Below, one piece after another: positions 23,084 through 56,358 of a stretch of 64,000 nt of DNA (position 1 is its first letter; every line of letters starts with the position of its first letter). Location of the stretch: contig CAVVZB010000001.1 in assembly GCA_963752695.1 (NCBI GenBank), positions 430,989 through 494,988 of the forward strand, in the 5' to 3' direction. This DNA is from Bryobacterales bacterium. GTDB taxonomy: Bacteria > Acidobacteriota > Terriglobia > Bryobacterales > Bryobacteraceae. The notes under the pieces are model-generated. The model was not told the origin of the DNA, made no database searches, and was given only the letters and a program-made list of their open reading frames with translations. A program made the translations under genes and the position numbers.

Positions 23084-25183
23084 TTATTGCAAAATCTTCC
23101 AGAGATTGCTGAAATCGTCAGTCCAGGGCCGTAATCCGGGCCGGTCATCAATAGGCGACTCAGCCTCGGCCATCCACGGAAATCGCTTCAGTTCGTCGGC
23201 GCCCACCAGCACCCAATCAGAAGCGAAAGTTCGCGTCGGATCCTCACGCAGACTTTCGATCAAATGCGCTTCCCGTCCGGCCTCGACCGCCAACAGCTGC
23301 ACAGGAGTGGAAAGATCCAAATACTTGTTCGACGTGTGAATTGCCAAAATGCCGCCGGGGCGCAACTGCCGGAAATACACGCGGAACGCCTCACGAGTCA
23401 AAAGGTGAATCGGGATCGAGTCCCCCGAAAAAGCATCAACCGCGATAACGTTAAATTGCTGATTTTGCTCCCGTTCCATGGCCAGGCGTGCATCCCCTAA
23501 AGCGACCTCGACGTGGCCCGGACAATCTCGTAAATAGGTGAATTCCGATTGGGCCAGCCGCAAGACCAGCGGGTTAATTTCATAGAAGCGGATCGAGTCT
23601 CCCAGCCGCGCCCAGGTCGCCATCGTCCCCGTTCCGAGCCCAACCACGCCGATACTTACAGGCCCGCGTTTTTGTAGATCCTGCATTAGAAGACCGATCC
23701 CGGTTTTCGGCGCGTAGTACGTGATCGGTAATCGCCGTCGCACAGGATCCAGATACTGTTCGCCATGGTTGATCGTGCCGTGAGCTAGTTCTTTCAGGCC
23801 GAGGTCGTCATCCACGGTGACCCGCAAAGCGCCATAGAAATTGCGCACCAACAAGTCCGCGTCGCTCAGGAACTCCGCTTGCTGCTTGCCCAGGCAAATA
23901 GCCATCCCGAGAGTCGCGACAATCCCCAGCGCCCACGCAGCCCAAGTCATTTTGCCCGCCCCCCTGGCCTGCTTCACTAAAATCGACAGCACTGTTAAGG
24001 GGGTCAGAACCAGTAGAATCGGAAACTCCAGAAGTGCTGGAAAAACGGTCGGCGCAAACGCGGCGACGAAGAGCCCTCCGCATGCTCCGCCTAGCGCAAC
24101 CATCAAGTAGAAGCCGGTCAAGAATTCCTTCGCCGGCCGTCTTTTCACCAGCTCACCGTGACAGACCATGCAGCACGTGAACAGACCTAAGGTGAACAGC
24201 GGAATCAACAGCCGAATCTCGCGAATCTGCACCTGGCGAGCTAACGCGTATGCCATCGCCCCAATCGCAATCGTAAACAGTGGGAGCCAAATTCTTCGGC
24301 GATACCACCGCGAACTCTCGAAGGTGAGTATGAAACTCAGCAGATACAGACTTAATGGCAGTACCCAGAGAAAAGGAATCGCGGCGATATTTTGAGTAAT
24401 GTGGTTGCTGATCGCGAGCAGCAGCCCCGACGCGCACCCGGAAAGAATCAGCCATGCCAGCCGCGTTCCCCAGTCCGGCGCTATCGCCGGTTCTCGGGTG
24501 TTTTCCAGGTCTGGCGCAGCCGGCCAATCCGCGTCGCGCGCGAGCCACATACATAGGCCGGCGAAGATTGCATAACCCGCCGACCACATCCAAGCTTGGT
24601 TCCGCAGTGAAAGCGCCGGTTCAATCACGAAGGGATAGCTGAGCAGCGCCAGCATCGACCCTAAGTTCGACAGGGCGAAAAACCGGTACGGCAGTCCCGT
24701 GGTGCGCGTCCGCCCGTACCAGGTCTGCAGCAACGGACTTGTCGCCGCCATGAGGAAGTAAGGTGCTCCCGCGACGACCGTCAGAAGCTCGAGAATTCGA
24801 ATCAGTGGCAGTGATCCATCGAGCGGCTTCCACCTGACCGAGGGAATGATCGGCAAAGCGAGTAAGCTCACCAGAAGCAACGCGCGATGCACCCATTTCG
24901 CCCGCGCGCCACTCTGTCCGCCGCCCAGCCAGTGCGCGTAGCCGTAACCCGCCAGCAGAGCCAGTTGGAAAAAGAGCATGCAGGAGGTCCAGACCGCGGC
25001 AGACCCACCGAACCAAGGCAAAATCTCTTTGGCAACCAGCGGTTGCATCTGGAACAACAAGAACGCGCTTAGAAATATTGTTAACGCATAAACCGCTGCA
25101 GGAGCGCCCGCCCTAGTTGTAGGCGGCGACGCCCGTGACGCGTTCCCCGATAACCAGGGCGTGGATGTGGTCGGTTCCCTCAT
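23084..25183 (-). CDS. Fused membrane domain / spermidine-synthase-like SAM-dependent protein
   Basis: TIFLSAFLLFQMQP start of a multi-TM region; GTINHGEQ, VVGLGTGT, GDAR, VDAFSGDSIP; start uncertain. Confidence 0.85.
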   Translation of the reverse strand: MREPTTSTPWLSGNASRASPPTTRAGAPAAVYALTIFLSAFLLFQMQPLVAKEILPWFGGSAAVWTSCMLFFQLALLAGYGYAHWLGGGQSGARAKWVHRALLLVSLLALPIIPSVRWKPLDGSLPLIRILELLTVVAGAPYFLMAATSPLLQTWYGRTRTTGLPYRFFALSNLGSMLALLSYPFVIEPALSLRNQAWMWSAGYAIFAGLCMWLARDADWPAAPDLENTREPAIAPDWGTRLAWLILSGCASGLLLAISNHITQNIAAIPFLWVLPLSLYLLSFILTFESSRWYRRRIWLPLFTIAIGAMAYALARQVQIREIRLLIPLFTLGLFTCCMVCHGELVKRRPAKEFLTGFYLMVALGGACGGLFVAAFAPTVFPALLEFPILLVLTPLTVLSILVKQARGAGKMTWAAWALGIVATLGMAICLGKQQAEFLSDADLLVRNFYGALRVTVDDDLGLKELAHGTINHGEQYLDPVRRRLPITYYAPKTGIGLLMQDLQKRGPVSIGVVGLGTGTMATWARLGDSIRFYEINPLVLRLAQSEFTYLRDCPGHVEVALGDARLAMEREQNQQFNVIAVDAFSGDSIPIHLLTREAFRVYFRQLRPGGILAIHTSNKYLDLSTPVQLLAVEAGREAHLIESLREDPTRTFASDWVLVGADELKRFPWMAEAESPIDDRPGLRPWTDDFSNLWKILQ

Positions 25184-26282
25184 ACGTCTTTACGGTTTCG
25201 AGGTTGCATAGATGGCGCATAACAGGATACTCCTCGGTGATCCCGTTGGCGCCGAGCAAATCGCGCGCGTCGCGGGCCGCGTCTAGTGCGATTGCAACGT
25301 TATTGCGCTTCAGCATGGAAATGTGTGCCGGTTCCAGCAAACCTTGATCCTTCAACCGCCCGCAATGCAGCGCCAGCAGTTGCGCCTTTGTAATCTCTGT
25401 AATCATGCGCGCCAGCTTCTCTTGCACCAGTTGATGGGACGCTAACGGCTTATCTGCGAACTGCTTTCGCGTGACTACGTATTCACGGGCCGTCTCAAAG
25501 CAGTCCATGGCGGCACCCAGCACGCCCCACCCAATTCCATACCGCGCTTGCGACAGGCACGAAAGCGGACCCTTCAATCCCCGAACCTCAGGAAGCATAT
25601 TGCAGCACGGGACGCGGCAATCGGAAAATGCGAGGCTGGAAGTCACCGAGGCCCGCATCGACCACTTTCCGTGTATGTCGGAGGTCGAATAACCGCGAGT
25701 TCCTTTCTCCACCAGAAACCCGCGCACGCCATCGTGGGTTTTCGCCCAGACTATGGCCACATTCGCCAGACTCCCGTTTGTGATCCAGGTCTTTTCTCCA
25801 TTGAGTACCCAATCCTGTCCGTCACGGACCGCGTTTGTGCGCATCCCGCCGGGGTTTGACCCGAAGTCCGGCTCGGTCAGCCCGAAGCACCCAATAGCCT
25901 CGCCCGATTGCATTTGCGGAAGCCATCTGTGTTTTTGCTCGTCGGAGCCGAACTTCCAGATCGGATACATGCAAAGCGCGCCCTGCACCGAAACGAAACT
26001 GCGTAGGCCCGAATCGCCGCGCTCGATTTCCTGCATGACTAGCCCGTACTCCACGTTGCTCATCTCCGCGCAGTTGTATCCGGTCAAATTTGCGCCAAAA
26101 AATCCAAGGCGCCCCATTTCCCGGATCAGAGATGTCGGAAAGGTAGCATTCCGGTAAGAATCGTTGATCAGAGGCATTACCGCTGAATCGACGAAGTCCC
26201 GCGTAGTCTGGCGTACCATCTTCTCCTGTTCATCAAATTGCGAATCGATTCGAAGATAGTCCGTAAACCCTTTTGTCATCAT
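25113..26282 (-). CDS. Acyl-CoA dehydrogenase, glutaryl-CoA dehydrogenase-like
   Basis: CFGLTEPDFGSNP, LNGEKTWITNG, RKQF, YEGTDHIH. Confidence 0.9.
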   Translation of the reverse strand: MMTKGFTDYLRIDSQFDEQEKMVRQTTRDFVDSAVMPLINDSYRNATFPTSLIREMGRLGFFGANLTGYNCAEMSNVEYGLVMQEIERGDSGLRSFVSVQGALCMYPIWKFGSDEQKHRWLPQMQSGEAIGCFGLTEPDFGSNPGGMRTNAVRDGQDWVLNGEKTWITNGSLANVAIVWAKTHDGVRGFLVEKGTRGYSTSDIHGKWSMRASVTSSLAFSDCRVPCCNMLPEVRGLKGPLSCLSQARYGIGWGVLGAAMDCFETAREYVVTRKQFADKPLASHQLVQEKLARMITEITKAQLLALHCGRLKDQGLLEPAHISMLKRNNVAIALDAARDARDLLGANGITEEYPVMRHLCNLETVKTYEGTDHIHALVIGERVTGVAAYN

Positions 26283-26433: not shown

Positions 26434-27945
26434 GTGCCCGTGATGGACATGAAAGCTATAGCTAGTTCCCTGCTTTGGTTGGGCGGGATTGCTTTTGTCC
26501 TATCGGTCATTCTTACGCCAATCATGCGCGATATCTTCCGCTCCTATGGCGTGGTGGATTTGCCTGATCAGGGCCGTAAAGCTCATAAATACCCTATCCC
26601 GCGAGTGGGTGGCATCGCCATAGCGATTGCTTACACTCTGGCCTTTGTGTTTGCGCCAGCGCCCGAAGGCTCGCTGCTTCACGAAAATTTATACCTTGTC
26701 TGGCGATTGCTGCCGGCGGCTGGGGTGATCTTTGCTACAGGTATCATTGATGACCTATTCGGACTAAAGCCGTGGCAAAAGCTCATCGGCCAGTTCGGCG
26801 GTGCGACCTTGGCCTACTTCGCCGGTATCCGGGTCTTGATCGTAGTGGGCGTGGCGACCGAAGATTGGTGGAGCTATCCGGCAACTATCCTCTGGTTACT
26901 GGTTTGCACAAATGCTTTTAACCTGGTTGACGGAATGGACGGACTAGCTGGTGGGATCGGGCTTTTCTCGACGCTGACGATTTTCGTTGCGAGCCTGGTG
27001 CACCAGAGTCCCGCTCTGGCGCTTGCGACTGTTCCCCTGGCCGGCTGCTTACTAGGTTTCCTTTGTTATAACTTCAATCCGGCGACCATCTTTTTAGGTG
27101 ATTCGGGCAGTTTGTCCATTGGGTTTCTGCTTGGGTGCTTTGGCATCATATGGACACAAAAATCAGCGACTCTACTCGGAATGACGGCGCCTCTAATGGC
27201 GCTTTCCATCCCCTTGCTCGATACGTGTCTTTGCATCGTCCGCCGCGCGCTCAAGCGCCAGCCGATTTTCAGCCCTGACCGCGGACATATTCATCACAAG
27301 CTACTCGACCGCGGCCTCACGCCCCGGCGGGCAGTGCTAGTTGTCTACGCGGTTTGTAGCCTGGTCGCTTGCTTCTCGATTCTCCAAAGCACCGTTCGCA
27401 GCAATCGGATTAGCGGCGTAATCACCATCGTTTTCTGTGCAGTGGCGTGGCTCGGAATTCAATATCTTGGGTATGCAGAATTTTCGGTAGCCGGAAAGAT
27501 GCTCTTTAGCGGTGATTTCCAAAAGAGTCTGAAGGTCCAATTGGAACTGCATGCCTTCGAGCGCGAAATCGTTAAGGCCGAGACGTTGGAAGATTGTTGG
27601 CGCATTCTTCAGAGCACTGCCAAGAATTGCGGATTTCGATGTGAGCGCTTGCGCGTGGGAGATAGTAGTGTTTTTGAGTCATGCCTCGATTCACGATTGA
27701 CCGAAATGTCAGATCCGCCCGCGGAGTGGCGGTTACGAATTCCGATGCTCGATGGGGGTTACGTCGATCTCACCCGCCCTTTTAACACCGTGATCTCCGC
27801 GTCCGTCGTAGGCCCGTTTGTAGACGTCATCCGCGGAACGCTTGCGCCTACGTTAAAACGTGTGGCGGCAGAGGACCAGAAGCGCGTGGGACTAGGCTCG
27901 ATGGTTCCGGTTGCTGCGACAGGAAATCTTAAGGGCGCGTACTAA
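26434..27945 (+). CDS. wecA: Undecaprenyl-phosphate GlcNAc-1-phosphate transferase (MraY/WecA family) with C-terminal soluble extension
   Basis: PRVGG, GIIDD, NAFNLVDGMDGL, FLGDSGS, DRGHIHHKL. Confidence 0.85.
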   Translation: MPVMDMKAIASSLLWLGGIAFVLSVILTPIMRDIFRSYGVVDLPDQGRKAHKYPIPRVGGIAIAIAYTLAFVFAPAPEGSLLHENLYLVWRLLPAAGVIFATGIIDDLFGLKPWQKLIGQFGGATLAYFAGIRVLIVVGVATEDWWSYPATILWLLVCTNAFNLVDGMDGLAGGIGLFSTLTIFVASLVHQSPALALATVPLAGCLLGFLCYNFNPATIFLGDSGSLSIGFLLGCFGIIWTQKSATLLGMTAPLMALSIPLLDTCLCIVRRALKRQPIFSPDRGHIHHKLLDRGLTPRRAVLVVYAVCSLVACFSILQSTVRSNRISGVITIVFCAVAWLGIQYLGYAEFSVAGKMLFSGDFQKSLKVQLELHAFEREIVKAETLEDCWRILQSTAKNCGFRCERLRVGDSSVFESCLDSRLTEMSDPPAEWRLRIPMLDGGYVDLTRPFNTVISASVVGPFVDVIRGTLAPTLKRVAAEDQKRVGLGSMVPVAATGNLKGAY

Positions 27946-27963
27946 CTAAGAGACGGGCTAGCG

Positions 27964-29310
27964 ATGCGGGCCTTCTCTTTATTTCCAACTCAAACACTGA
28001 TCGTTCTCGTCGGCGATCTCCTGCTTTCCGCTCTTATCTATAGCGTCTCTGCGGCCTATTTGATCCAAGATCCGCTATTAGGCTTCCTTGCGGACTCAAA
28101 TGGATGGCTTCGGTTGCTGCTCGCCGTCATTAGCATCGTCGGGGGCATCTATTTCAACGAGCTATACTCCGCCGTTCGCGTGCGCTCCCGCATCTCACTC
28201 ATTCTTCAGCTATCGCACGTCTTCGGGCTTTCCCTTGTTATCCAGACGCTGCTCGTGTATCTGAATGCGAACTGGGCTCTACCCCGCCGGGTCGTGCTCG
28301 CGGCAACGCTGATCGGACTGCCGGCGTTTTTTCTTTGGCGACTCGCCTATAGCGCCTTTTTATGGAAGCTGTTCGGCACCCAATCGGTCTTGCTTGTGGG
28401 TAATGGCCCGCTCGCACAGGAGTTGGCCCGCTTGATTGCATCGAACCCCGATCGCGCCATGAGCCTCGCCGGCTATGTCGGTGACGCAGTTCCCATCGAT
28501 GCGATTCCAGGCATTTATCTTGGCCGCTTTGAGGAGTTACCGGCAATTACCGACGAAGTGCGGCCGCATCGCGTCGTCGTTGCTTGTTCTGACCGCCGCG
28601 ACGGAGGTATGCCGATTGCAGAGCTTCTAACCGTCCGGCATCGAGGCGTTCCGATCGAAGAAGGTGCCCGGCTGTATGAACTCCTGTGCAATCGTATATG
28701 CGCCAGCGAGTTCAGTCCTTCGCAGTTCATTTTCGATCAGACTCTTAAGCATCGGCCCGGCAGCGTGGCGCTGCAGTCGATCTACATCAATCTGATGGCC
28801 CTCGTCGGGATCGCCGTACTCTCGCCCTTATTGATCGTGTTAAGCATCCTCGTGAAGCTCTCGACACGCGGGCCTATTCTGAATCCGGTTCCATGCGTCG
28901 GCTACCGCCAAATTCCTTTCTCTTTTCTTCGGTTCCGAACCACTCGCCGGGCTCCTGGATCAAACCGTGAAAGCGTGACGCGCCTCGGCGCTTTTTTGCG
29001 AAAGACCAGACTGGAAGTGTTGCCGGCGCTGTTTAACTTGCTGCGTGGCGAAATGGCGATCGTGGGGCCGCGGCTTGATCGACAGGAGATTGGTGAGGAG
29101 CTGGCTAACCGCATTCCGTTTTATGAGCAGCGATATGCACTGCGGCCAGGTCTAACGGGCTGGAGCCAAATCAATATGGACCGTCAACCGGAAGCCCCGG
29201 ATGCGCTGATTTCGCTTGAGTACGACCTCTACTACCTCAAGAATATGTCCCTCTCCCTGGATGCCTACGTCTTGCTGCATCGTTTGCGGCACATGTTTAC
29301 GATCGCTTAG
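27964..29310 (+). CDS. WcaJ/WbaP-type sugar transferase homolog with degenerate catalytic motifs
   Basis: 4 TM + Rossmann-like + Bac_transf domain (LRKTRL, GEMAIVGPR, RPGLTGWSQIN, YDLYYLKN); DELPQ replaced by EVLPA. Confidence 0.85.
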   Translation: MRAFSLFPTQTLIVLVGDLLLSALIYSVSAAYLIQDPLLGFLADSNGWLRLLLAVISIVGGIYFNELYSAVRVRSRISLILQLSHVFGLSLVIQTLLVYLNANWALPRRVVLAATLIGLPAFFLWRLAYSAFLWKLFGTQSVLLVGNGPLAQELARLIASNPDRAMSLAGYVGDAVPIDAIPGIYLGRFEELPAITDEVRPHRVVVACSDRRDGGMPIAELLTVRHRGVPIEEGARLYELLCNRICASEFSPSQFIFDQTLKHRPGSVALQSIYINLMALVGIAVLSPLLIVLSILVKLSTRGPILNPVPCVGYRQIPFSFLRFRTTRRAPGSNRESVTRLGAFLRKTRLEVLPALFNLLRGEMAIVGPRLDRQEIGEELANRIPFYEQRYALRPGLTGWSQINMDRQPEAPDALISLEYDLYYLKNMSLSLDAYVLLHRLRHMFTIA

Positions 29311-29357: not shown

Positions 29358-29714
29358 ATGACTCCGAACCTGATCCTGCTCAACATTTGCTCAATAGCAT
29401 TGATTGGCCTGCTTGGCCTATTTGCACTGCATAATCGAAAGTCGGGGTGGGTGAAGCACCGGACGACGGTCGTGGAAGATCTGCTCAGCCTTCAGAGAAT
29501 TTGGGATGAGGAAGAAACACGACTAGACGAGTCAGCTCAACCAACCACGGGGCATGCTGCGATATCGCATCAACCGGAACCCACAAAGGCAATGGGTGTC
29601 CAGCTATCTTCGTTGAACTCCGCGCTAAAAAGCTCTGTCTCGAGAAACTCTGAGGCACCCTTAGAACAGGTAAATGCCGACGAACCCCAGACCATGGCCA
29701 TTGAAGCTGCCTAA
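29358..29714 (+). CDS. Hypothetical protein, N-terminal TM and low-complexity tail
   Basis: ATG 29358, hydrophobic first ~25 aa; co-directional with the upstream sugar transferase. Confidence 0.55.
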   Translation: MTPNLILLNICSIALIGLLGLFALHNRKSGWVKHRTTVVEDLLSLQRIWDEEETRLDESAQPTTGHAAISHQPEPTKAMGVQLSSLNSALKSSVSRNSEAPLEQVNADEPQTMAIEAA

Positions 29715-30844
29715 GGCGACAGCTTTGGGATTTTAACCTGGGTAGTCTTCCATAAGCTTGCAGAAGGCACGAAAAATATCGAGACCGCAAATAGCGAAGC
29801 CGCCATCAGCATACAAAAAGTGTGAGCCGGCGCGGTAATCCGCTTCCAAAAAGCCCCTTCTGCGAGCAGATCATCCATTGCCGCCGAACCGTAGAAAAGT
29901 ATCTGCGGTGCAACTGCGATCCAAACCAGTGGCGATGGGAGAAACACGCTTGTCAGAGCAATTACCAGCAGCATGTACGGCAGTATCAGCCGCGTGATCT
30001 TATATGAGAAGAAATGAAACCACTTGGGGCCCAACCCATGGTGCCAGACGTATTGATACAGGCCAGCAAGGGTGCGGACCTTGCGTTGAAATTCCATGCC
30101 ACGGGCGGTAGGGTAGTCGTACGCGCGCGCAGCTGGCTCGAAGATCACCCGGAATCCCCGCCGCAGCACCAGCTGAGGCATAAAGATGTCGTCACCCAGC
30201 GCATCTGAGGGAAGGGGTTCAATAAGCGCGCGGCGCACCGCATAGAGACACCCGGTGACTACGAGTAACGTCCCCATGGCGCTCAGCTTGTGGCGGATCC
30301 ATTTTTCAACTTTCCAGTACAGGCCCACGGACGCTTCTTCGAGCGTATCGCCCCTCGGAATCATCAACTCGCCGCAGACCGCTCCGACGCGAGGATCCGC
30401 AAAGCATGCGACCATCTCGCGCAAGCAGTTCTTCTCCAGTTGTTGGCGCGCATCGGTGAAAAATACGATTTCACCCCGTGCCACCGACAGTCCGTGATTA
30501 ACAGCCGCGGCTTTTCCGCTCTTCGAAATGCAAATTACTTCAACACTCGCGAAGTTTCTCGCGAGTCGTTCCGTGCCATCGTCAGACCCGTCCGACACGA
30601 CGACAACTTGCAGGCATTCGCGGGGATAAACAAGCCTCTGGATCGACTCAAGCTTGCGCACAATCCATTCGGCGCCGTTGTAAACCGGGAGGATGATAGT
30701 CACCGTCAACGGCTCAAACTGCTTGTGTACCGGCCGGGCCCGCAGGCGCGCCAAAATAGCCAGTAGCAGCGGATAGACGAACAGCGCGTACACCACGAAA
30801 CCGGACGCGAATGAAAACAGAAATGCATTCATCCCAACGGCCAT
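29711..30844 (-). CDS. GT2 glycosyltransferase (CesA/IcaA-like)
   Basis: PVYNG, SDGSDD, GKAAA, FTDAR, LGDD, QRKVRT (QxxRW-like). Confidence 0.88.
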   Translation of the reverse strand: MAVGMNAFLFSFASGFVVYALFVYPLLLAILARLRARPVHKQFEPLTVTIILPVYNGAEWIVRKLESIQRLVYPRECLQVVVVSDGSDDGTERLARNFASVEVICISKSGKAAAVNHGLSVARGEIVFFTDARQQLEKNCLREMVACFADPRVGAVCGELMIPRGDTLEEASVGLYWKVEKWIRHKLSAMGTLLVVTGCLYAVRRALIEPLPSDALGDDIFMPQLVLRRGFRVIFEPAARAYDYPTARGMEFQRKVRTLAGLYQYVWHHGLGPKWFHFFSYKITRLILPYMLLVIALTSVFLPSPLVWIAVAPQILFYGSAAMDDLLAEGAFWKRITAPAHTFCMLMAASLFAVSIFFVPSASLWKTTQVKIPKLSP

Positions 30845-30847
30845 ACT

Positions 30848-32146
30848 CTATCGCACCGTTGCATTCACAGGTCTTGGGCTGTTCATCAGCTTGCGAACAT
30901 TGTTTAGCTGGGCGGCGGGCTTAGGGACCGCGACCTCGGCGTTCACGGCGGCCCAAATCGCTACGATCAACCCGGAAATCGCTGGCAGGTAGAAACGGTA
31001 CGCAAAGCTGACGAACACCGTAGCTGTCGTATAGGCCACCATCCCGATCAGGAGACAGAAAGCTGCCGTGGCGATCTCTTCGTTTCCAGCCGCCGCCGCC
31101 GCTTTCCGAGTCTTGACAAGCAGCCCGAAGCTGGAGAATAGAGCCCCCAAGTAGAAGAACAGAGCCGGCAGACCGCACTCCGAAGAGACTTGGGTATAAG
31201 TGTTGTGGGTCTCGTGCCAATTACCGCGCATTCCTTGACTGGTCATCGTACCCCCCTCGTAGCTGGAGAACTGACCCGGTCCGACGCCGAAAACTGGGTG
31301 ATGGAGCGTATAGATTAGACTCTGGCGGAAAAGATATTGCCGCGCAGCGCTCGATTCCAATGCTTCGTCGCTGGCGCTCTCATTCTCGGAAAACGAAGTC
31401 AGGCGTTTCCATGTGCTGCTAGGAATCAAGACCACCAGCGCGATCAGCGCTACCGGCGCGCCAACTACCACCGCCACCCGCTGGCGGGCGCTCCCCGTGA
31501 TCAGCACGAAAACGGCGGTGACTGCCAACGCCACAAGTGCGCCCCGCGATCCCGTATGCAAGATTTGATAGAGCCCTAAGCCCACCGCCACCACACCCAA
31601 GATCCGGACAACGGGAGCGCTCTTCGGTTTGATTACATAGAAAAGAACAAATGGAACCGCCAGCAAAAGATGAGCGGCTAAATCATTGGAGTTGGCAATG
31701 GTGCCGCCCCAGCTCAGCGCCAATCGATCGCTGCTCGTAGTCTGCATGAAGAAATGCGCGGTGCCCAGATTTACGATTGTTGCGAGAGCGATTACGCCAA
31801 TCATCTGCCTGCAGTCCTTCCATGTGCGTGCAAGGCCCGCGGTGATCAGAAACATGCAAACGTCGGTCCTCAGATAAGAGAAGAAATCGCTGGCGGAACC
31901 TCCCGGCCACGAGCTGAATACAATGTCGATCGCCATCCAGGCGAGAAATGCCAACCAGTATTTCCCGATCCGTTCACGAAGGCTTCGCTCCACCCCTCCG
32001 GAAACTGCGATTCCGAAAAAAGCGATCGGACCGAAGATATAGAGAACGTAAGTGTTGATGCCGGTTAAAAAAGTGATCGTCTCGTGCAGGTAGCTGAATC
32101 GCAGGAATAAGAGTGCAAGCGCGCACTTGAACGCCAGCCGGTCCAT
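30848..32146 (-). CDS. O-antigen ligase/polymerase (Wzy_C) family protein
   Basis: NSNDLA, TGSRGA, FGVGPGQF, THNTYTQVSSECG. Confidence 0.88.
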   Translation of the reverse strand: MDRLAFKCALALLFLRFSYLHETITFLTGINTYVLYIFGPIAFFGIAVSGGVERSLRERIGKYWLAFLAWMAIDIVFSSWPGGSASDFFSYLRTDVCMFLITAGLARTWKDCRQMIGVIALATIVNLGTAHFFMQTTSSDRLALSWGGTIANSNDLAAHLLLAVPFVLFYVIKPKSAPVVRILGVVAVGLGLYQILHTGSRGALVALAVTAVFVLITGSARQRVAVVVGAPVALIALVVLIPSSTWKRLTSFSENESASDEALESSAARQYLFRQSLIYTLHHPVFGVGPGQFSSYEGGTMTSQGMRGNWHETHNTYTQVSSECGLPALFFYLGALFSSFGLLVKTRKAAAAAGNEEIATAAFCLLIGMVAYTTATVFVSFAYRFYLPAISGLIVAIWAAVNAEVAVPKPAAQLNNVRKLMNSPRPVNATVR

Positions 32147-32575
32147 TTAGCTGGCGTTCCGTTCCAACAGCTCAATTAGAAGCTTCTCGGCGGTGAGGAC
32201 CCAAGCGATTCGCCGGCCCGCAAAGGCCACAGCCGGTTTTGGGCGCTTGGCAATGACTGCTCGCCGGCTGCGAAATGCAGCCAACTCCGAATCCAAATGG
32301 TCCACCTCGTAGCACAGGTGGTGTAAACCACCGCCCTTTTGCAGAAACTCGCGTACTGGGGACATCCCTTCCGCAGGCTCCACCAGTTCAATTTGGGCAT
32401 CCCGATCACGCACGGTAAGAAACGCTACTTTTACTCTCTGATTTGGGTCTTCAGAGATGACGCCGTCCCACCGGGCGCCCACCGAATGCGCGAAATTGTC
32501 GATTGAACCCGCAATGTCGGCGACTACATAACCGACGTGGTGAAGCGACCTTTCGGCGCTTAGCGGCTCCGGCAC
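32147..32575 (-). CDS. VOC-family protein (methylmalonyl-CoA epimerase-like)
   Basis: LHHVGYVV, IELVEP, GGGLHHLCYEV, IELLE metal-ligand pattern. Confidence 0.88.
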   Translation of the reverse strand: MPEPLSAERSLHHVGYVVADIAGSIDNFAHSVGARWDGVISEDPNQRVKVAFLTVRDRDAQIELVEPAEGMSPVREFLQKGGGLHHLCYEVDHLDSELAAFRSRRAVIAKRPKPAVAFAGRRIAWVLTAEKLLIELLERNAS

Positions 32576-32818
32576 TCAGGCGACCTGCAGCACGGAGTGA
32601 AGGTATTGCAGAATGCGCTCGAACGAATCGAGTTCAGCCAGCTCGTCCAAATCCATCTGGATCTGGAACTCGTCTTCGATGACGTTCACCAGGGTAATCG
32701 CGGCAATGGAGTCCCAGGCGGCTATCGACTCCTGGGTTGCACTGGGAATTTCAGAAACCGGCAACTCCGGGAAAACTGTTTCGAAGCAGCGTTCCAAGCG
32801 CGCCTTCGTATTATCCAT
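32576..32818 (-). CDS. Acyl carrier protein
   Basis: 80 aa, acidic, WDS phosphopantetheine site, IEDEFQI. Confidence 0.9.
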   Translation of the reverse strand: MDNTKARLERCFETVFPELPVSEIPSATQESIAAWDSIAAITLVNVIEDEFQIQMDLDELAELDSFERILQYLHSVLQVA

Positions 32819-34553
32819 TTGTCTCTACTCTCTCCGTCTCAGCAACATGGTGGTACAACGCCGGGCATTTCTCTTCAAACGCCAGGCGGCTTAACGCGAA
32901 ACTACCCGAAGGCTCCTGGCCTGTCAATGCGGCAAATAGATTTCGAGCCGGACCGTTCTTTGCCGTAGGCACGAATTCGATCTGCAATTTCTGCGCCGCA
33001 AACCTCTCGAACATCAGCTTTAGACACTGGAATTCAATACGGCGCGCGAAAGCGCGGCAACTCAACACCCAGGTTTCGATGACCACCGCGTCGCGCTCGC
33101 GCCGCCCCTGGATTACTCCAATTTTACCTAGCGGCCCAAACCGGTCGGCATAGCTGATCACCAGGAGAAATGCGCCGGGCCGGGTGAGCGCCTTTTTCCA
33201 TTCCGCCTCGGTATAGCGGGCCCCGTTGATGTTGAACTGATTTGTCTTATTTACCAGCTCGAGTGCGCGCGCGTCTTCCGTCCCTGCTCCGTAGTCAATG
33301 GTGAGCGTGGCTTCCGCTTGTTGAAGAAACGTCTCCGGAGTGGCGGCGGACGACTCGTGATGGAAATCCGCACCCCGGCGGATGCTCTCCAGCCGGATCG
33401 CGTCATCGCCCGAGACTTGCTCCTTCCCGCAGAGATCGCGCAAATTGCGCAACATTTCCAAAGCTGCCTGAGGCTTTTGCGTGGGGAACGGGACGGTTCG
33501 AATTCCGGGGTGCACGGCGGCAACTTCGGCCAGTTCCATCGGGCTATCGTCGACAAACACGACCGCATCAGCACCGATGTTCCAGGTCTGTAAAATTCGC
33601 TGGACGGAGCCAGACTTAGCTTCCCAGTGCACCTCCATCGGGAAAACCTGATCCGGCCGAAGCAGCAGATCTTCGCGCTGCAGGGCTTTTTGAACCACGG
33701 CTGGATCGTTCTTGCTCGCGATAGCGATCAGCACTCCGGCTTCAGCGAGACTGGCAAGTAGCTGCTGATACAGGCCGTGGACGCGATGATGGCTGGCCAG
33801 ATCCCAGGAGACATTTTCTGGGCCTACGTCGCCCACAATTCCTCGCCACAACGTGTCGTCCAAATCGGTAATGATCCCTTTTATGGGGCTTGCCGGGAGC
33901 AGCAGCCGCGCAAGTGTTGCGGCTAGAACATCGGCGTGCGCAAGCGTATATGGCAAGCCAGTCGCAAGGTCTGATTTCAGGTCGAGGCGTCCGCTCGCGG
34001 GCGAGTTCTCCTGAAGCCTGCGGGCATTGACCACGATCGTGCCCCGCCGTTCCGCGGCGCTGGCCGCGAACTGCGACAAGCTTTCTTCCAAAGCAAGCTC
34101 GGCCCGGCTGGCCTGCCATCCCACCGTGTGAAACGCCGGCGGAATTGGCAGCGTCGGCGTGCAAAGCGCAACCCGGATTCCGGTAGGCAAGCGATCAAGC
34201 GCCGAGCGCAACCGGTCCAACATCGCCCGCGCGCCATTCGCAATGTCCGTCACTGCGGACAGCCCCCAGTTGGCGGACTCGCGATAGCCAAGACGTGGAT
34301 CCAAGTCTGGCCATTCGATCGCGCACCCCACTGCGTCGACATCGGAAACCGCCGCGCCTTCCAAGCTGCCCGCAAGATCGCCGTACAAACCGGTGCTCAC
34401 CTGAACCAGCCGCGCGGGAAGCCGCTCCTGCAAACGCGCATTCAGAAACAACTGCAGATGCAGCGGCGTGAATCCACACGCTAGCAGCGCCGTAAACCGC
34501 GGTTGCTCCTTCGGCGCTAGCTGTAATATTTTGAGAGCTTCTGTGACTGTCAC
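32811..34553 (-). CDS. FkbH-like HAD-IIIC glyceryl transferase/phosphatase
   Basis: DLDDTLW.G, SKND, FVDD...E, LVNKTNQFN, DRFG..G, VLSCR. Confidence 0.92.
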   Translation of the reverse strand: MTVTEALKILQLAPKEQPRFTALLACGFTPLHLQLFLNARLQERLPARLVQVSTGLYGDLAGSLEGAAVSDVDAVGCAIEWPDLDPRLGYRESANWGLSAVTDIANGARAMLDRLRSALDRLPTGIRVALCTPTLPIPPAFHTVGWQASRAELALEESLSQFAASAAERRGTIVVNARRLQENSPASGRLDLKSDLATGLPYTLAHADVLAATLARLLLPASPIKGIITDLDDTLWRGIVGDVGPENVSWDLASHHRVHGLYQQLLASLAEAGVLIAIASKNDPAVVQKALQREDLLLRPDQVFPMEVHWEAKSGSVQRILQTWNIGADAVVFVDDSPMELAEVAAVHPGIRTVPFPTQKPQAALEMLRNLRDLCGKEQVSGDDAIRLESIRRGADFHHESSAATPETFLQQAEATLTIDYGAGTEDARALELVNKTNQFNINGARYTEAEWKKALTRPGAFLLVISYADRFGPLGKIGVIQGRRERDAVVIETWVLSCRAFARRIEFQCLKLMFERFAAQKLQIEFVPTAKNGPARNLFAALTGQEPSGSFALSRLAFEEKCPALYHHVAETERVETNG

Positions 34554-34619
34554 GCCCCCTCTACTTTAACGGTTTTCCCGGTTGGTACCATCAACGTGCT
34601 GAAAGCTTGAGAGTATCGA

Positions 34620-35357
34620 GTGATCGAGAGCATTCTTTTAAAAATCAAGCGCGGAGATTCGGCTTTCTACCGCAGGCTGGGGAGCATGGCTCGCTCCGTC
34701 TCGTCGAGCAACCTGCCCGTCCCTGGTTTTCTCTACCCCGTTCTCCGATTTCTTTTCAATCTCCATACGGAAGTGGCCGCAGGTCTTCGCTGGCTCATCA
34801 GTTATCTCTACTACGAGCCGCTATTTCGCAGCCGCTGCGCTTCCGTGGGCCGCCACTTTCGTCTATCCCGGCTCCCGTTTGTCGTGGGTCACACTCAAAT
34901 ACATATCGGCAACAATGTGAATTTTTTCGGAAAAGTCGATATTTTTAGCGGCCGCATGTATGACCGGCCGACCCTCATTCTGAAAGACCGCGTCGATATC
35001 GGCCACAATGTCGTGTTCGTAGTGAACCAGGAGATCGTTATCGAAGAGGATGTGAATGTGGCTTCGGGCGTGCGCTTCATGGATTCCGACGCACATCCTC
35101 GCGACACGGCGGAGCGGATTGCTGACCTGCCCCCACGGCTCGAAGAAATCAAGCCGGTGCGTATCGGGCGCTATGCGTGGATTGGCCAGAACTCCTTCAT
35201 TCTGAAAGGGGTTACCATCGGCGAAGGCGCGGTCATTGGAGTCAATAGCGTGGTCGTGACCGACATTCCGGCCTATTCGGTGGCGATGGGCAACCCCGCG
35301 CGGGTCGTAGTGAAGAATGCTGGCAAGCCGGTCGCCAGCGCTGATCCCCAGCCGTAA
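34620..35357 (+). CDS. Hexapeptide-repeat (left-handed beta-helix) acyltransferase
   Basis: IGRYAWIGQNSFILKGVTIGEGAVIGVNSVV..DIP....MGNPAR. Confidence 0.88.
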   Translation: MIESILLKIKRGDSAFYRRLGSMARSVSSSNLPVPGFLYPVLRFLFNLHTEVAAGLRWLISYLYYEPLFRSRCASVGRHFRLSRLPFVVGHTQIHIGNNVNFFGKVDIFSGRMYDRPTLILKDRVDIGHNVVFVVNQEIVIEEDVNVASGVRFMDSDAHPRDTAERIADLPPRLEEIKPVRIGRYAWIGQNSFILKGVTIGEGAVIGVNSVVVTDIPAYSVAMGNPARVVVKNAGKPVASADPQP

Positions 35358-35369
35358 ATGCAATAGAGA

Positions 35370-37202
35370 ATGTGCGGCATCGCGGGGTTCATCGAGGCAG
35401 GTCAGGCGGAATGGGCAGGAAATGCCGTGCGCGCAATGGTATCGGCCCTTCAGCGGCGCGGCCCCGATAGCGAAGGCATCCACGCGTGGGCCGATGCGAC
35501 GCTGGGACACCGGCGTCTTGCGATTCTCGATTTGAGCCCAGCCGGCGCGCAGCCCATGCTCTCCGCGGACGGAACGGTAGGACTGGTCTTCAACGGGTGT
35601 ATCTACAATTTCCGGGAGTTGCGGCGGGAACTCGAGTTATTGGGAATTGCTTTCCACTCGCATTGCGATACCGAGGTGCTTCTCGAAGGCTACCGCGCGT
35701 GGGGCATTCGTGAGCTCACACGCAAGATTCAGGGCATGTTCGCCTTCGCCATCTGGGATGCCCCTCAGGAAAAGCTTTTTCTGGTGCGTGACCGGCTTGG
35801 GGTCAAGCCGCTGGTCTACGCGGCAGCTGGCAACCGCATCGCCTTTGCATCCACCATCGATGCTCTCCGCGCAGCCAAGTTGACCGGCGCGGTCGATGCC
35901 GATGCCGTCTTGCAGTTTCTGGAATTCGGCTTCGTTCTGGATACCTCCAGCATTTTCGAAGGCGTCCAAAAGCTGCCCCCAGCGACCGTTCTGGAGTGGC
36001 AGGGCGGCCGCTTTGAGACGTATACCTATTGGGAACTGCCGGAGCCTTCTGCTGAGGCGGGGAACTTCGAAGACGCGGTGGATCGGACCGAGAGCCTTCT
36101 TGTGGAAGCGGTCCGGATGAGGCTGGTTGCCGATGTGCCGGTTGGGGCGCTATTGAGCGGCGGCATCGATTCCACCTTGATTTGCTGGGCGATGGCGAAG
36201 CTGAACGCGAACATCACGGCATTCACAGTCGCGGCCCCGGGAGACGCCGACGACGAGGCGGGCGCGGCGGCGATGACGGCCCGCGCTTTAGGAATCGATC
36301 ACTGTGTGGTTCCTCTGCCGGAAGCCGCCCCGGTCGTGATCGACAACTTGATTGCGGCCTTTAGCGAGCCGTTCGCCGTACATTCGGCGCTCGGTATGCT
36401 GCTGGTGTCGCAGGCAGTTCGGCCGAGGGCGAAAGTCCTGCTGACCGGCGATGGCGGTGATGACGTTTTCTTAGGCTATCCGTTCCTGCATAACGCGTGG
36501 CGCGCTCAGCGCGTAGCTGGATTGCTCCCGCCAGGTGCGGGAAGCCTCTGGGGAGCCATGCGAGGTTTGGTCCCCTGGCGGCGCGCGCGCAATTTCCTGG
36601 ATTACAGCACCGCCGGTTTGGCGGGACACGCTCAAGCCCACGACGGCCTTCCCTGGTTCGAGGCGCGCGGTCTACTGGGGCCGCAATTGCAGGGCCGGGC
36701 CTTAGCGGCGCGGTCCATGCAGGCGAGTTCCGAATCAGCCAGGAGCCTGCTCTCCGAGGTGCTGCGCTATCACCAGAACACGCATTTCACCAGCGAATTC
36801 CTGCCGAAGGTGGATGGTGGAACCATGTACCACGGGATCGAGGCGCGTTCGCCGTTGCTCGATCAGGCGCTCTGGGAACTGGCGGCTTCGCTTCCGTACA
36901 GCTTGCGCATGCGAGGCGGAGAGTTGAAGGCTGTTTTGCGCGCCATTGTCCGAAAGCGGGTAGGGCCGCAGATCGCCAGCCGCAGGAAACAAGGGTTCTC
37001 CATTCCGCTAGAACGGCGGCTGGCCGGAGCTTGGAAACAGGAACTGAAGTCGCTCACCGGCGTCACACTACTTGAAGAACAAGGATGGCTCTCCGCCGGT
37101 CAACTTCGCAGGGTCGTGGACGAGGCGCAACAGGCGAGCGCGGTGCCCGTTCAGATCTGGCGTCTCCTGGTGCTGGAACGCTGGCTTTGCAGCCGGACTT
37201 AA
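35370..37202 (+). CDS. asnB: Asparagine synthase (glutamine-hydrolysing)-type amidotransferase, probably amidating polysaccharide uronates
   Basis: MCGIAG N-terminal nucleophile, HRRLAILDL, RDRLGVKPL, LSGGIDS, TGDGGDD, RRKQGF. Confidence 0.92.
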   Translation: MCGIAGFIEAGQAEWAGNAVRAMVSALQRRGPDSEGIHAWADATLGHRRLAILDLSPAGAQPMLSADGTVGLVFNGCIYNFRELRRELELLGIAFHSHCDTEVLLEGYRAWGIRELTRKIQGMFAFAIWDAPQEKLFLVRDRLGVKPLVYAAAGNRIAFASTIDALRAAKLTGAVDADAVLQFLEFGFVLDTSSIFEGVQKLPPATVLEWQGGRFETYTYWELPEPSAEAGNFEDAVDRTESLLVEAVRMRLVADVPVGALLSGGIDSTLICWAMAKLNANITAFTVAAPGDADDEAGAAAMTARALGIDHCVVPLPEAAPVVIDNLIAAFSEPFAVHSALGMLLVSQAVRPRAKVLLTGDGGDDVFLGYPFLHNAWRAQRVAGLLPPGAGSLWGAMRGLVPWRRARNFLDYSTAGLAGHAQAHDGLPWFEARGLLGPQLQGRALAARSMQASSESARSLLSEVLRYHQNTHFTSEFLPKVDGGTMYHGIEARSPLLDQALWELAASLPYSLRMRGGELKAVLRAIVRKRVGPQIASRRKQGFSIPLERRLAGAWKQELKSLTGVTLLEEQGWLSAGQLRRVVDEAQQASAVPVQIWRLLVLERWLCSRT

Positions 37203-52790: not shown

Positions 52791-56357
<3,567 letters not shown>

Positions 56358-56358
<1 letters not shown>

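What the first reader, a model, noticed from the sequence alone, without database searches (positions are those of the whole stretch)
32147..35357. PKS-free FkbH-ACP-VOC cassette plus acyltransferase inside an EPS locus
Seen: fkbH > acp > VOC > wzy-like > GT2 are tightly coupled; a hexapeptide acyltransferase and asnB diverge across a 66-bp spacer; no ketosynthase or MBOAT gene is in the window. Established: FkbH loads glycerate from 1,3-bisphosphoglycerate onto ACP, and VOC enzymes catalyse epimerisation/isomerisation via enolates. Inference: glyceryl-ACP is epimerised or converted to another C3 acyl group and put on a nucleotide sugar or the polymer, giving an unusual EPS substituent.
Basis: partly seen in the sequence, partly recalled or inferred. 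Interest (0 to 1): 0.6.

Follow-up and report, generated by a model that had tools for sequence, protein, structure and literature searches.

The report
Carrier-protein glyceryl cassette decorating a polysaccharide
A soil acidobacterium's polysaccharide locus carries a conserved four-gene set (FkbH loader, carrier protein, glyoxalase-fold enzyme, sugar O-acyltransferase) that most likely makes a three-carbon glycerate group from glycolysis and esterifies it onto the sugar polymer, a route that is widespread but has not been tested at the bench.

Summary
FkbH, ACP, VOC, Wzy and GT2 are translationally coupled (-8, 0, 0 and 3 nt). A hexapeptide acyltransferase followed by asnB diverges across exactly 66 bp. 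The window holds no ketosynthase, and the genome holds no detectable MBOAT.

The FkbH passes its curated model and keeps the HAD motifs and the SCR cysteine found in PKS-linked FkbH enzymes. The ACP has the WDS serine. The VOC keeps its metal ligands. The acyltransferase is of the NeuO/LacA O-acyltransferase type, with the catalytic His.

In 85 related loci, mostly Acidobacteriota, the usual order is FkbH>ACP>VOC>acyltransferase, set among glycosyltransferase and UDP-sugar genes and never next to a PKS. The VOC position is sometimes filled by a dehydratase-ketoreductase fusion. This marks an on-carrier tailoring step before transfer.

Best reading (about 0.5): D-glyceryl-ACP is epimerised or rearranged by the VOC and O-esterified onto the repeat unit. 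The transfer step and the product are inferred, not shown.

AsnB is only loosely linked. Apart from a passing Campylobacter mention, I found no paper on FkbH in glycans. Gellan's L-glycerate ester is a chemical precedent. This scan has noted similar cassettes in many other genomes.

The parts
32811..34553 (-). FkbH-like glyceryl-ACP synthase, 580 aa. It has three domains: an N-terminal domain (1-220), a HAD phosphatase (225-370) and a C-terminal GNAT-like domain carrying Cys499.
   Evidence: TIGR01686 scores 211.6 bits, above the 146.65 cut-off. D230/D232/T234, S280, K313, D335/D336 and S498-C499-R500 are invariant, including in PKS-linked FkbH proteins. The AF2 model has pLDDT 78.7. Foldseek matches BF1531 (3slr), the MDP-1 HAD phosphatase and GNAT acetyltransferases.
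32576..32818 (-). Dedicated acyl carrier protein, 80 aa, with the phosphopantetheine serine in the W35-D36-S37 motif.
   Evidence: PF00550 scores 28.2 bits, above the 20.8 cut-off. Sequence. WDS is invariant in 80 orthologues. The gene overlaps the FkbH stop by 8 nt. It is adjacent to FkbH in 80 of 85 loci.
32147..32575 (-). VOC (glyoxalase I / methylmalonyl-CoA-epimerase-like) metalloenzyme, 142 aa. Proposed to tailor the ACP-bound glyceryl group.
   Evidence: Glyoxalase_4 scores 72.6 bits. TIGR03081 scores 60.2 bits, below the 114.95 cut-off, so it is not a true MMCE. The closest solved proteins are Clostridium glyoxalase I (2qh0/3hdp) and MMCEs. H13, E63, H85/H86 and E134 are conserved in 55 orthologues. 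Its start codon abuts the ACP stop.
34620..35357 (+). Left-handed beta-helix O-acyltransferase of the NeuO/LacA/maltose-acetyltransferase/WbbJ type, 245 aa, with a family-specific N-terminal region of about 80 aa. Proposed transferase of the C3 acyl group.
   Evidence: Hexapep scores 36.7 bits. The best NCBIfam match is WbbJ at 85.8 bits, below its 243 cut-off. A profile of orthologues best matches NeuO (3jqy) and S. aureus GAT, with H159 in DSDAHP aligned to their SDGHP/TATHP His. Orthologues of 50-87% identity lie just after ACP/VOC in about 46 of 85 loci.
34554..34619 (.). 66-bp divergent intergenic spacer between the FkbH operon and the acyltransferase-asnB pair.
   Evidence: Coordinates. 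Start codons are supported by orthologue N-termini. The same divergent layout is seen in the closest relative, L007.
30848..32146 (-). Wzy_C-family membrane protein (polymerase or ligase type), start abutting the VOC stop.
   Evidence: PF04932 scores 68.8 bits. The junction was read. A Wzy-like gene is within 7 kb of the FkbH in 19 of 85 loci.
29711..30844 (-). Family 2 glycosyltransferase, last gene of the five-gene operon.
   Evidence: PF00535 scores 82.3 bits. It starts 3 nt after the Wzy stop.
35370..37202 (+). AsnB-type glutamine amidotransferase, 12 nt downstream of the acyltransferase. It is context, probably separate polymer tailoring.
   Evidence: TIGR01536 scores 390 bits, above the 267 cut-off. 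TIGR03108 (XrtA/PEP-CTERM amidotransferase) scores 421 bits, below its 817 cut-off. It is near the FkbH in only 10 of 84 loci.
26434..29310 (+). WecA/MraY-type and Bac_transf-type initiating phosphoglycosyl transferases (26434-27945 and 27964-29310). They provide the context that makes this a lipid-linked glycan locus.
   Evidence: PF00953 scores 123.6 bits and PF02397 scores 125.3 bits.

Best explanation
This is a PKS-independent, carrier-protein-based acyl-decoration module for a surface polysaccharide.

Proposed steps:
1. FkbH takes 1,3-bisphosphoglycerate from glycolysis. Its HAD domain removes the phosphate, the D-glyceryl group is held on Cys499, and it is then passed to the phosphopantetheine arm of the adjacent ACP. 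This is the established chemistry of the family; it is inferred for this protein.
2. The VOC metalloenzyme removes the C2 proton of the glyceryl thioester through a metal-bound enediolate. The most likely outcome is epimerisation of D- to L-glyceryl-ACP. A different rearrangement is possible. This step is inferred.
3. The NeuO/LacA-type beta-helix acyltransferase uses its conserved His159 to move the C3 acyl group from the ACP to a sugar hydroxyl. The acceptor would be the undecaprenyl-linked repeat unit or the nascent polymer at the cytoplasmic face. This step is inferred.
4. The coupled Wzy-family protein and GT2 then complete the polymer.

The product would be an alkali-labile glycerate ester on the polysaccharide, comparable to the L-glycerate ester of gellan.
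For: Shown here:
- FkbH passes the curated family model.
- It shares every invariant catalytic residue with a Streptomyces FkbH that sits beside KAS III, an ACP and a PKS, and with a PKS-embedded FkbH domain.
- The three-domain fold is supported.
- The ACP serine motif is invariant.
- The VOC metal ligands are conserved, and its nearest solved relatives make or epimerise thioesters.
- The acyltransferase's catalytic His aligns with that of NeuO and GAT.

Genomic linkage:
- Relatives were found in 493 species genomes. In the 80 best loci plus five others, the usual order is FkbH>ACP>VOC>acyltransferase (ACP 80, VOC 55, acyltransferase orthologue about 46, all three in 35). The loci are embedded in GT4, GT2, UDP-sugar dehydrogenase/epimerase and Wzy genes.
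- A MaoC-dehydratase::SDR fusion takes the VOC's place in 6 of the 7 loci that have it. An FkbM methyltransferase follows the acyltransferase in one locus. Both point to an on-ACP tailoring step before transfer.
- Distant relatives of the acyltransferase are fused to GT2 or GT4 glycosyltransferases.
- No other acyltransferase, KS or MBOAT is available in the locus.
- No aminosugar genes lie in the locus. The only DegT is 11 kb away among unrelated genes. This fits O- rather than N-acylation.

Literature:
- Gellan carries L-glycerate at O-2 of glucose (PMC9737242, citing Kuo et al. 1986).
- C. jejuni strains that lack the fkbH-domain gene cj1302 or the 'epimerase' cj1301 lack dimethylglyceric-acid sugars (PMC7099621).
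Against: - Nothing biochemical is known for any member of this cassette.
- The acyltransferase belongs to a clade whose characterised members use acetyl-CoA, not acyl-ACP.
- 20 of 85 loci have FkbH-ACP-VOC with no such acyltransferase within 7 kb.
- In two of those genomes the orthologue sits alone among unrelated genes, and in two others it was not found.
- Two of six acyltransferase orthologues had no FkbH within about 5 kb.
- GT-fused distant relatives lie in loci without FkbH.
- The VOC is absent from 15 loci that have the acyltransferase, so it is optional, and its exact reaction cannot be read from sequence.
- The only ACPS-type phosphopantetheinyl transferase domain found in the genome is part of a large KS-containing frame, so ACP activation is unconfirmed.
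Confidence: 0.5

Rival explanations
1. FkbH-ACP(-VOC) does supply a glycerate-derived group to the glycan, but the hexapeptide protein is an ordinary acetyl-CoA-dependent O-acetyltransferase. The C3 group would be transferred by something else: the GNAT-like domain of FkbH itself, or an unlinked enzyme.
For: All solved or curated relatives are acetyl-CoA enzymes. Orthologues occur unlinked to FkbH. 20 of 85 loci lack the acyltransferase. Distant relatives fused to GTs lie in FkbH-free loci.
Against: The orthologue group (50-87% identity) sits directly after ACP or the tailoring gene, on the same strand, in about 45 loci. Many of those loci also carry a second, generic hexapeptide transferase of about 30% identity that could do the acetylation. 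No alternative transferase is present in this window. If FkbH transferred the group itself, the nearly universal ACP would have no role.
Confidence: 0.2
2. Glyceryl-ACP is not a donor but an acceptor or primer. Glycosyltransferases would build on the hydroxyls of the tethered glycerate, giving a glycosyl-glycerate end group or small glycoside, and the hexapeptide enzyme would acetylate it.
For: The same genome has a second FkbH fused to its ACP, followed by a GT4 and a GT4::thioesterase fusion. That layout suggests glycosylation of a carrier-bound group and hydrolytic release. GT4 genes are the commonest neighbours of the cassette (38 loci).
Against: The window cassette has no thioesterase. 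GT genes are expected in any glycan locus. Alternation of VOC with a DH-KR fusion fits tailoring of an acyl donor better, because lactyl-ACP has only one hydroxyl. WecA- and Bac_transf-type initiating enzymes in the locus already provide a lipid primer.
Confidence: 0.1
3. The canonical role: glyceryl-ACP feeds a polyketide pathway (methoxymalonyl- or hydroxymalonyl-ACP extender, tetronate or butenolide), and it lies beside EPS genes only by chance.
For: All literature on FkbH concerns PKS/NRPS products. The genome does contain large KS-bearing genes.
Against: No KS, KAS III, FkbI/FkbK-type dehydrogenase pair or O-methyltransferase is in the operon. The nearest KS is about 100 kb away. Across 85 loci the conserved neighbours are glycan genes only. 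FkbH through GT2 are translationally coupled.
Confidence: 0.03

Closest known systems
FkbH / OzmB / Mad7-Mad14-type glyceryl-ACP synthases with stand-alone ACPs (methoxymalonyl-ACP and tetronate pathways; PMC7489565)
   Same: Same curated family (TIGR01686), same HAD motifs and SCR cysteine, and a dedicated small ACP encoded immediately downstream.
   Different: There is no ketosynthase, FabH-like enzyme, dehydrogenase pair or PKS. The partners are a VOC enzyme and a sugar O-acyltransferase inside a Wzy-type polysaccharide operon. Identity to PKS-linked FkbH is only 27-30%.
NeuO / OatWY polysialic acid O-acetyltransferases and LacA / maltose O-acetyltransferases (PDB 3jqy, 2wlc, 3ftt, 1krr)
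   Same: Left-handed beta-helix. The catalytic His lies in an S/T-x-x-H-P motif followed by the loop and the WIG repeat. These enzymes act on sugar hydroxyls.
   Different: The known enzymes use acetyl-CoA. This orthologue group has a unique, conserved N-terminal region of about 80 aa. It is genomically tied to an ACP-bound C3 acyl donor. It scores below the WbbJ and WcaF equivalog cut-offs.
Glyoxalase I (Clostridium acetobutylicum, PDB 2qh0/3hdp) and methylmalonyl-CoA epimerase
   Same: Single-domain-pair VOC fold with His/Glu/His/Glu metal ligands. Both enzymes work through an enolate or enediolate next to a thioester.
   Different: It scores below the MMCE equivalog cut-off. Its presumed substrate is a protein-bound 2,3-dihydroxyacyl thioester rather than a CoA or glutathione thioester.
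Campylobacter jejuni flagellin glycosylation island genes around cj1301 ('epimerase') and cj1302 (fkbH domain), and the dimethylglyceric-acid pseudaminic acid of strain 11168 (PMC7099621, PMC3068675)
   Same: A PKS-free FkbH-domain gene beside an 'epimerase' in a glycan locus. A glycerate-derived acyl group is found on the sugar. Strains lacking either gene lack that sugar.
   Different: The acyl group there is on a nonulosonic acid of a glycoprotein and is di-O-methylated. No experiment has tied cj1301 or cj1302 to it. I could not compare the sequences here.
Gellan (Sphingomonas elodea), with L-glycerate ester at O-2 of glucose (PMC9737242, citing Kuo, Mort and Dell 1986)
   Same: A glycerate O-ester on a Wzy-dependent exopolysaccharide. 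The L configuration would need inversion if the donor came from D-1,3-bisphosphoglycerate, which is what a VOC epimerase would supply.
   Different: The review gives no gene for the gellan glyceryl transferase. I could not search a Sphingomonas chromosome, so any genetic relation is untested.
Dlt D-alanylation and FkbH-ACP-MBOAT cassettes (for example Sinorhizobium meliloti pSymB next to rkp-3)
   Same: A small carrier protein delivers an acyl group to a cell-surface polymer.
   Different: Those systems pass the group through a membrane MBOAT to the outside. This genome has no detectable MBOAT and uses a soluble beta-helix transferase, which implies acylation on the cytoplasmic side.

Membership tests
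FkbH-type glyceryl-ACP synthase (TIGR01686) | Match to the curated FkbH-domain model above its cut-off | tested here: met
   211.6 bits against a cut-off of 146.65, covering residues 225-545.
FkbH-type glyceryl-ACP synthase (TIGR01686) | HAD-IIIC catalytic motifs (DxDxT nucleophile, Ser/Thr, Lys, DD) | tested here: met
   D230, D232, T234, S280, K313 and D335/D336 are invariant in 15 orthologues and in PKS-linked FkbH proteins.
FkbH-type glyceryl-ACP synthase (TIGR01686) | Conserved cysteine of the C-terminal acyl-transfer domain. Its role as the glyceryl-S-enzyme site is recalled from the OzmB work, not checked here. | tested here: met
   S498-C499-R500 is invariant across all six diverse FkbH sequences aligned. 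The C-terminal domain has a GNAT-like fold.
FkbH-type glyceryl-ACP synthase (TIGR01686) | Dedicated ACP with a phosphopantetheine serine encoded beside it | tested here: met
   80-aa ACP overlapping the FkbH stop, with WDS invariant. Adjacent in 80 of 85 loci.
FkbH-type glyceryl-ACP synthase (TIGR01686) | Uses 1,3-bisphosphoglycerate and forms glyceryl-S-ACP | not testable with these tools
   Needs an enzyme assay with intact-protein mass spectrometry.
Methoxymalonyl-ACP / tetronate pathway (as a pathway) | Ketosynthase or FabH-like condensing enzyme, FkbI/FkbK-type dehydrogenases or a PKS in the cluster | tested here: not met
   No KS in the window and no KAS III domain in the genome. The operon genes are VOC, Wzy and GT2.
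Methylmalonyl-CoA epimerase (TIGR03081) | Score above the equivalog cut-off | tested here: not met
   60.2 bits against a cut-off of 114.95. It is a VOC protein of the MMCE/glyoxalase I type, not an MMCE orthologue.
VOC metalloenzymes (glyoxalase I / MMCE type) | Four metal ligands from the paired beta-alpha-beta-beta-beta modules | tested here: met
   H13, E63, H85/H86 and E134 align with conserved positions of 2qh0/3hdp and are conserved in 55 orthologues. The ligand assignment rests on alignment, not on a structure.
NeuO / LacA / maltose O-acetyltransferase clade of hexapeptide transferases | Hexapeptide beta-helix with the catalytic His in the x-x-H-P motif before the extended loop | tested here: met
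   PF00132 scores 36.7 bits against 27. H159 (DSDAHP, invariant in 21 orthologues) aligns with SDGHP of NeuO and TATHP of S. aureus GAT.
NeuO / LacA / maltose O-acetyltransferase clade of hexapeptide transferases | Acetyl-CoA as acyl donor | not testable with these tools
   Donor choice (CoA or ACP thioester) cannot be read from the sequence. It scores below the WbbJ (85.8 against 243) and WcaF cut-offs.
LpxA / LpxD-type acyl-ACP-dependent hexapeptide transferases | Sequence membership in the LpxA/LpxD families | tested here: not met
   Neither family appears among the 25 NCBIfam matches shown (37 in all) or the PDB matches, which are headed by CoA-dependent O-acetyltransferases. Resemblance would be in mechanism only.
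Dlt-like carrier-protein / MBOAT relay | Membrane MBOAT acyltransferase partner | tested here: not met
   No PF03062 match in the genome, which is 92.55% complete.

The most novel reading that the evidence does not exclude
The cassette is a modular 'C3 acyl toolkit' for polysaccharides. FkbH-ACP would supply D-glyceryl. An exchangeable tailoring gene would set the product: none gives D-glyceryl, VOC gives L-glyceryl, and a dehydratase-ketoreductase gives lactyl. A NeuO-like beta-helix enzyme would be the first member of its clade to take an acyl-ACP instead of acetyl-CoA. This would give the missing genetic basis for glycerate and lactate esters on bacterial polysaccharides such as gellan, and a handle to engineer them.
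Probability: 0.35. Interest if true: 0.7.

Novelty: new variant of a known kind. Interest (0 to 1): 0.58.

Why it matters
Acyl decorations control the gelling, solubility, charge, and phage and immune recognition of bacterial polysaccharides. The genes for the less common ones (glycerate, lactate) are largely unassigned.

This cassette links a glycolytic intermediate to polymer decoration through a carrier protein, using parts known only from antibiotic pathways. It is common in soil Acidobacteriota: relatives were found in 493 species genomes, and the closest ones are nearly all Acidobacteriota. Their exopolysaccharides are thought to matter for soil aggregation.

If confirmed, it would name a new enzyme activity for a VOC protein and a new donor type for NeuO/LacA-type transferases. 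It would also give a testable candidate route for gellan-type L-glycerate esters and for the Campylobacter dimethylglyceric-acid sugars.

Tried and rejected
1. Complex prediction of an acyltransferase trimer with the ACP gave no verdict: scores 0.12 and 0.08, below the mark. It is not used as evidence either way.

2. The AF2 model of the acyltransferase monomer was poor (pLDDT 63.4), so I ran no fold search on it. Sequence profiles were used instead.

3. Sampling 300 genomes of the phylum around G000 for phyletic co-occurrence was uninformative. None of the sampled genomes held a close orthologue of this FkbH (best 34% identity), and only one held a moderate acyltransferase match.

4. A seeming VOC::acyltransferase fusion in L027 (407-aa ORF) was an out-of-frame upstream extension, not a fusion.

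5. A search for fused forms of the acyltransferase found no ACP or VOC fusion. It found only three single-member GT fusions of distant relatives.

6. I considered the acyl-CoA dehydrogenase at 25113-26282 as an FkbI-like partner and rejected it. It has no counterpart near the FkbH in any of the other loci.

7. I considered the DegT aminotransferase at 46415-47515 as a source of an N-acylation target and rejected it. It lies 11 kb away between acetyl-CoA synthetase and a metallo-beta-lactamase gene.

8. Literature searches combining FkbH with polysaccharide, O-antigen, exopolysaccharide, lipopolysaccharide, capsule or glycan returned nothing relevant except the passing Campylobacter mention. 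The library holds open-access papers only, so a paper in a subscription journal cannot be excluded.

9. I could not search a Sphingomonas (gellan producer) chromosome or fetch the C. jejuni cj1298-cj1303 sequences with the collections on hand.

Full report
**What is there**

The region holds seven genes in two divergent units.

On the minus strand:
- an FkbH-like protein (32811-34553, 580 aa)
- an 80-aa acyl carrier protein (32576-32818)
- a 142-aa VOC/glyoxalase-fold protein (32147-32575)
- a Wzy_C-family membrane protein (30848-32146)
- a family 2 glycosyltransferase (29711-30844)

On the plus strand:
- a 245-aa hexapeptide-repeat transferase (34620-35357)
- an AsnB-type amidotransferase (35370-37202)

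Read from the DNA, FkbH and ACP overlap by 8 nt. The VOC start abuts the ACP stop, and the Wzy start abuts the VOC stop. GT2 follows after 3 nt.

Upstream lie WecA-type and Bac_transf-type initiating transferases, so this is a lipid-linked glycan locus.

The window is G000:C1:430989-494988. The nearest ketosynthase domain is about 100 kb away. No KAS III domain and no MBOAT were found in the whole genome, which is 92.55% complete. No membrane Acyl_transf_3 gene lies in the window.

**The four core proteins**

*FkbH.* It scores 211.6 bits on TIGR01686 (cut-off 146.65). I aligned it with five other FkbH sequences:
- a Paludibaculum paralogue
- the genome's second FkbH
- a Streptomyces plasmid FkbH that sits between a KAS III and an ACP beside a type I PKS
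- an FkbH domain embedded in a Rhodococcus PKS
- an Erwinia fusion protein

The invariant residues are the HAD motifs (D230, D232, T234, S280, K313, D335, D336), a TNQ motif and S498-C499-R500. The AlphaFold model (pLDDT 78.7) has three domains. By Foldseek these resemble the N-terminal part plus HAD domain of BF1531 (3slr), the MDP-1 HAD phosphatase, and GNAT acetyltransferases for the C-terminal domain that carries Cys499.

*ACP.* It has the serine motif W35-D36-S37, which is invariant in 80 orthologues.

*VOC.* It passes Pfam Glyoxalase_4 but not the methylmalonyl-CoA epimerase equivalog (60.2 bits against 114.95). Its nearest solved relatives are Clostridium glyoxalase I (2qh0/3hdp) and methylmalonyl-CoA epimerases. 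The presumed ligands H13, E63, H85/H86 and E134 are conserved in 55 orthologues.

*Hexapeptide protein.* A profile of its orthologues matches best the polysialic acid O-acetyltransferase NeuO (3jqy) and the S. aureus galactoside acetyltransferase. The invariant His159 (DSDAHP) aligns with their SDGHP and TATHP motifs. N-acetyltransferase families score much lower. Its first 80 or so residues are conserved within the orthologue group and match nothing.

**Comparative evidence**

A scan of one genome per species found 493 genomes with a relative of this FkbH, and the best 80 loci were fetched. By record title nearly all are Acidobacteriota; one is from Binatia and one from Gemmatimonadales. The closest locus, a Bryobacterales MAG (L007), has the same layout as the window.

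I clustered all ORFs within 7 kb of the FkbH in 85 loci:
- ACP in 80 loci
- VOC in 55
- a hexapeptide transferase in 50
- all three in 35

The usual order is FkbH>ACP>VOC>transferase on one strand. About 46 of the transferases are true orthologues of the window's protein. They share 50-87% identity, as conserved as the FkbH itself, and start 130-2100 bp after the FkbH stop. Additional hexapeptide genes further away share only about 30% identity.

The other recurrent neighbours are GT4 and GT2 glycosyltransferases, an NAD-dependent sugar epimerase/dehydratase, a UDP-sugar dehydrogenase, UDP-GlcNAc 2-epimerase and Wzy. No PKS gene recurs. AsnB is near the FkbH in only 10 loci.

- three had FkbH-ACP immediately upstream
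- one had only the VOC beside it
- two sat with polysaccharide-type genes (glycosyltransferases, a deacetylase, an AsnB-type amidotransferase) and no FkbH within about 5 kb

Two genomes whose cassette lacks the transferase carry the orthologue elsewhere, among unrelated genes. Two others have none detectable. The link is therefore strong but not obligatory.

**An exchangeable tailoring step**

In seven loci a MaoC-type dehydratase fused to a short-chain dehydrogenase lies in the operon. It sits either between ACP and the transferase or just upstream of FkbH, and six of these seven loci have no VOC.

As I recall it (not checked here), a dehydratase-ketoreductase pair is what turns glyceryl-ACP into lactyl-ACP in the bryostatin loading module. 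One locus adds an FkbM-family methyltransferase after the transferase. Others go straight from ACP to the transferase.

This pattern (none, VOC, or DH-KR) is what one expects if the acyl group is modified while on the carrier and then handed to a common transferase.

**Proposed mechanism, and what is shown versus inferred**

Inferred here:
1. This FkbH does the same.
2. The VOC acts on the C2 proton of the glyceryl thioester. Both of its solved relatives work through an enolate or enediolate next to a thioester, so epimerisation of D- to L-glyceryl is the simplest outcome.
3. The NeuO/LacA-type transferase esterifies the group onto a sugar hydroxyl on the cytoplasmic side, before Wzy-type polymerisation.

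O-acylation is favoured over N-acylation for two reasons. It matches the transferase's family. The locus also has no aminotransferase or deacetylase: the only DegT in the window is 11 kb away among unrelated genes.

Distant relatives of the transferase are fused to GT2 or GT4 enzymes, which ties the clade to glycan assembly. Those loci lack FkbH, however, so the clade's original donor is probably acetyl-CoA.

**Rivals**

- *Main rival (0.2).* The transferase is just an O-acetyltransferase, and the C3 group is delivered by another enzyme.
- *Second rival (0.1).* Glyceryl-ACP is a glycosyl acceptor. This was prompted by the genome's other FkbH, which is fused to its ACP and followed by a GT4 and a GT4::thioesterase fusion.
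- *Canonical polyketide role (0.03).* It is very unlikely given the neighbours.

**Comparison with what is known**

The loader is a member of the FkbH family by every feature I could test. The pathway is not a member of the methoxymalonyl or tetronate pathways. The transferase is a member of the NeuO/LacA clade by sequence, but its donor is open. The VOC is not a methylmalonyl-CoA epimerase orthologue.

Ten literature searches found FkbH only in PKS/NRPS papers, with one exception. A paper on Campylobacter jejuni notes in passing an fkbH-domain gene (cj1302) and an 'epimerase' (cj1301) in the flagellin glycosylation island. The two strains that lack one or the other also lack the dimethylglyceric-acid pseudaminic acids of strain 11168. 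The only gene shown to be needed for that sugar is cj1295.

Gellan offers a chemical precedent: an L-glycerate ester at O-2 of glucose. The review I read names no gene for its 'glyceryltransferase'.

FkbH-ACP pairs with an MBOAT instead of a beta-helix transferase also exist, for example on S. meliloti pSymB beside rkp-3.

Earlier notes of this scan record FkbH-ACP cassettes in glycan loci of many other genomes, several with a VOC and a hexapeptide transferase. The theme is therefore recurrent in the scan, although none of those notes concerns a sequence relative of this locus.

**Verdict**

I class it as a new variant of known kinds: FkbH loading, carrier-fed surface acylation and beta-helix sugar O-acyltransferases. 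No biochemical evidence exists yet, but simple decisive assays are available.

Noticed in passing
G000:C4:107000-126999 (locus L087), outside the window: The genome has a second FkbH fused to its own ACP (683 aa, L087:9503-11554, minus strand). It is followed by a GT4, a GT4::thioesterase fusion, a PfkB kinase, a PMT_2 membrane glycosyltransferase, a DapF-like epimerase and a UDP-glucose dehydrogenase. This layout suggests glycosylation of a carrier-bound glycerate followed by hydrolytic release.
   Followed up: partly
L113:1613-5744; also L025, L045, L072, L082, L084, L085: A variant cassette in which a MaoC-dehydratase::SDR fusion replaces the VOC between or beside FkbH-ACP and the same transferase orthologue. 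It predicts lactyl rather than glyceryl groups.
   Followed up: partly
G000:C1:591894-596645, outside the window: The only ACPS-family phosphopantetheinyl transferase domain found in the genome lies in the same 1635-aa open frame as a ketosynthase domain. No stand-alone AcpS or Sfp was detected. The genome is 92.55% complete.
   Followed up: no
L109 (Sinorhizobium meliloti pSymB, CP140955.1 1048481-1053516): An MBOAT, a 409-aa protein annotated as 'TonB-dependent receptor', an ACP and an FkbH-like 'HAD family hydrolase' lie in a row next to the rkp-3 capsule export genes. FkbH matches occur in 40 Sinorhizobium plasmid records. This is a genetically tractable model for the MBOAT version of the system.
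   Followed up: no
L096 (Paludibaculum fermentans plasmid pPfer1, 29011-38205): A cultured member of the Bryobacteraceae carries a 46%-identical FkbH paralogue. No ACP is annotated next to it. It is flanked by a GNAT, a Wzy-type gene, GT2, a polysaccharide deacetylase and an MBOAT.
   Followed up: no
L097 (Erwinia rhapontici plasmid pERA53, 122533-132261): An 837-aa FkbH fusion protein sits in a non-glycan cluster with a PLP aminotransferase, a CDP-alcohol phosphatidyltransferase, an SDR, an ATP-grasp enzyme and an MFS exporter. This is probably a small-molecule pathway.
   Followed up: no
window 51242-56358: dnaA, dnaN and gyrB lie in a row, so the window probably includes the chromosomal replication origin region.
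   Followed up: no
window 46415-47515: A DegT-type sugar aminotransferase stands alone between an acetyl-CoA synthetase gene and a metallo-beta-lactamase-fold gene, away from any glycan locus.
   Followed up: no
L116:6001-7884 and L117:6001-7503: Distant relatives (37-42% identity) of the acyltransferase are fused to GT4 or GT2 glycosyltransferases in glycan loci that have no FkbH nearby. Each is a single-member cluster.
   Followed up: partly
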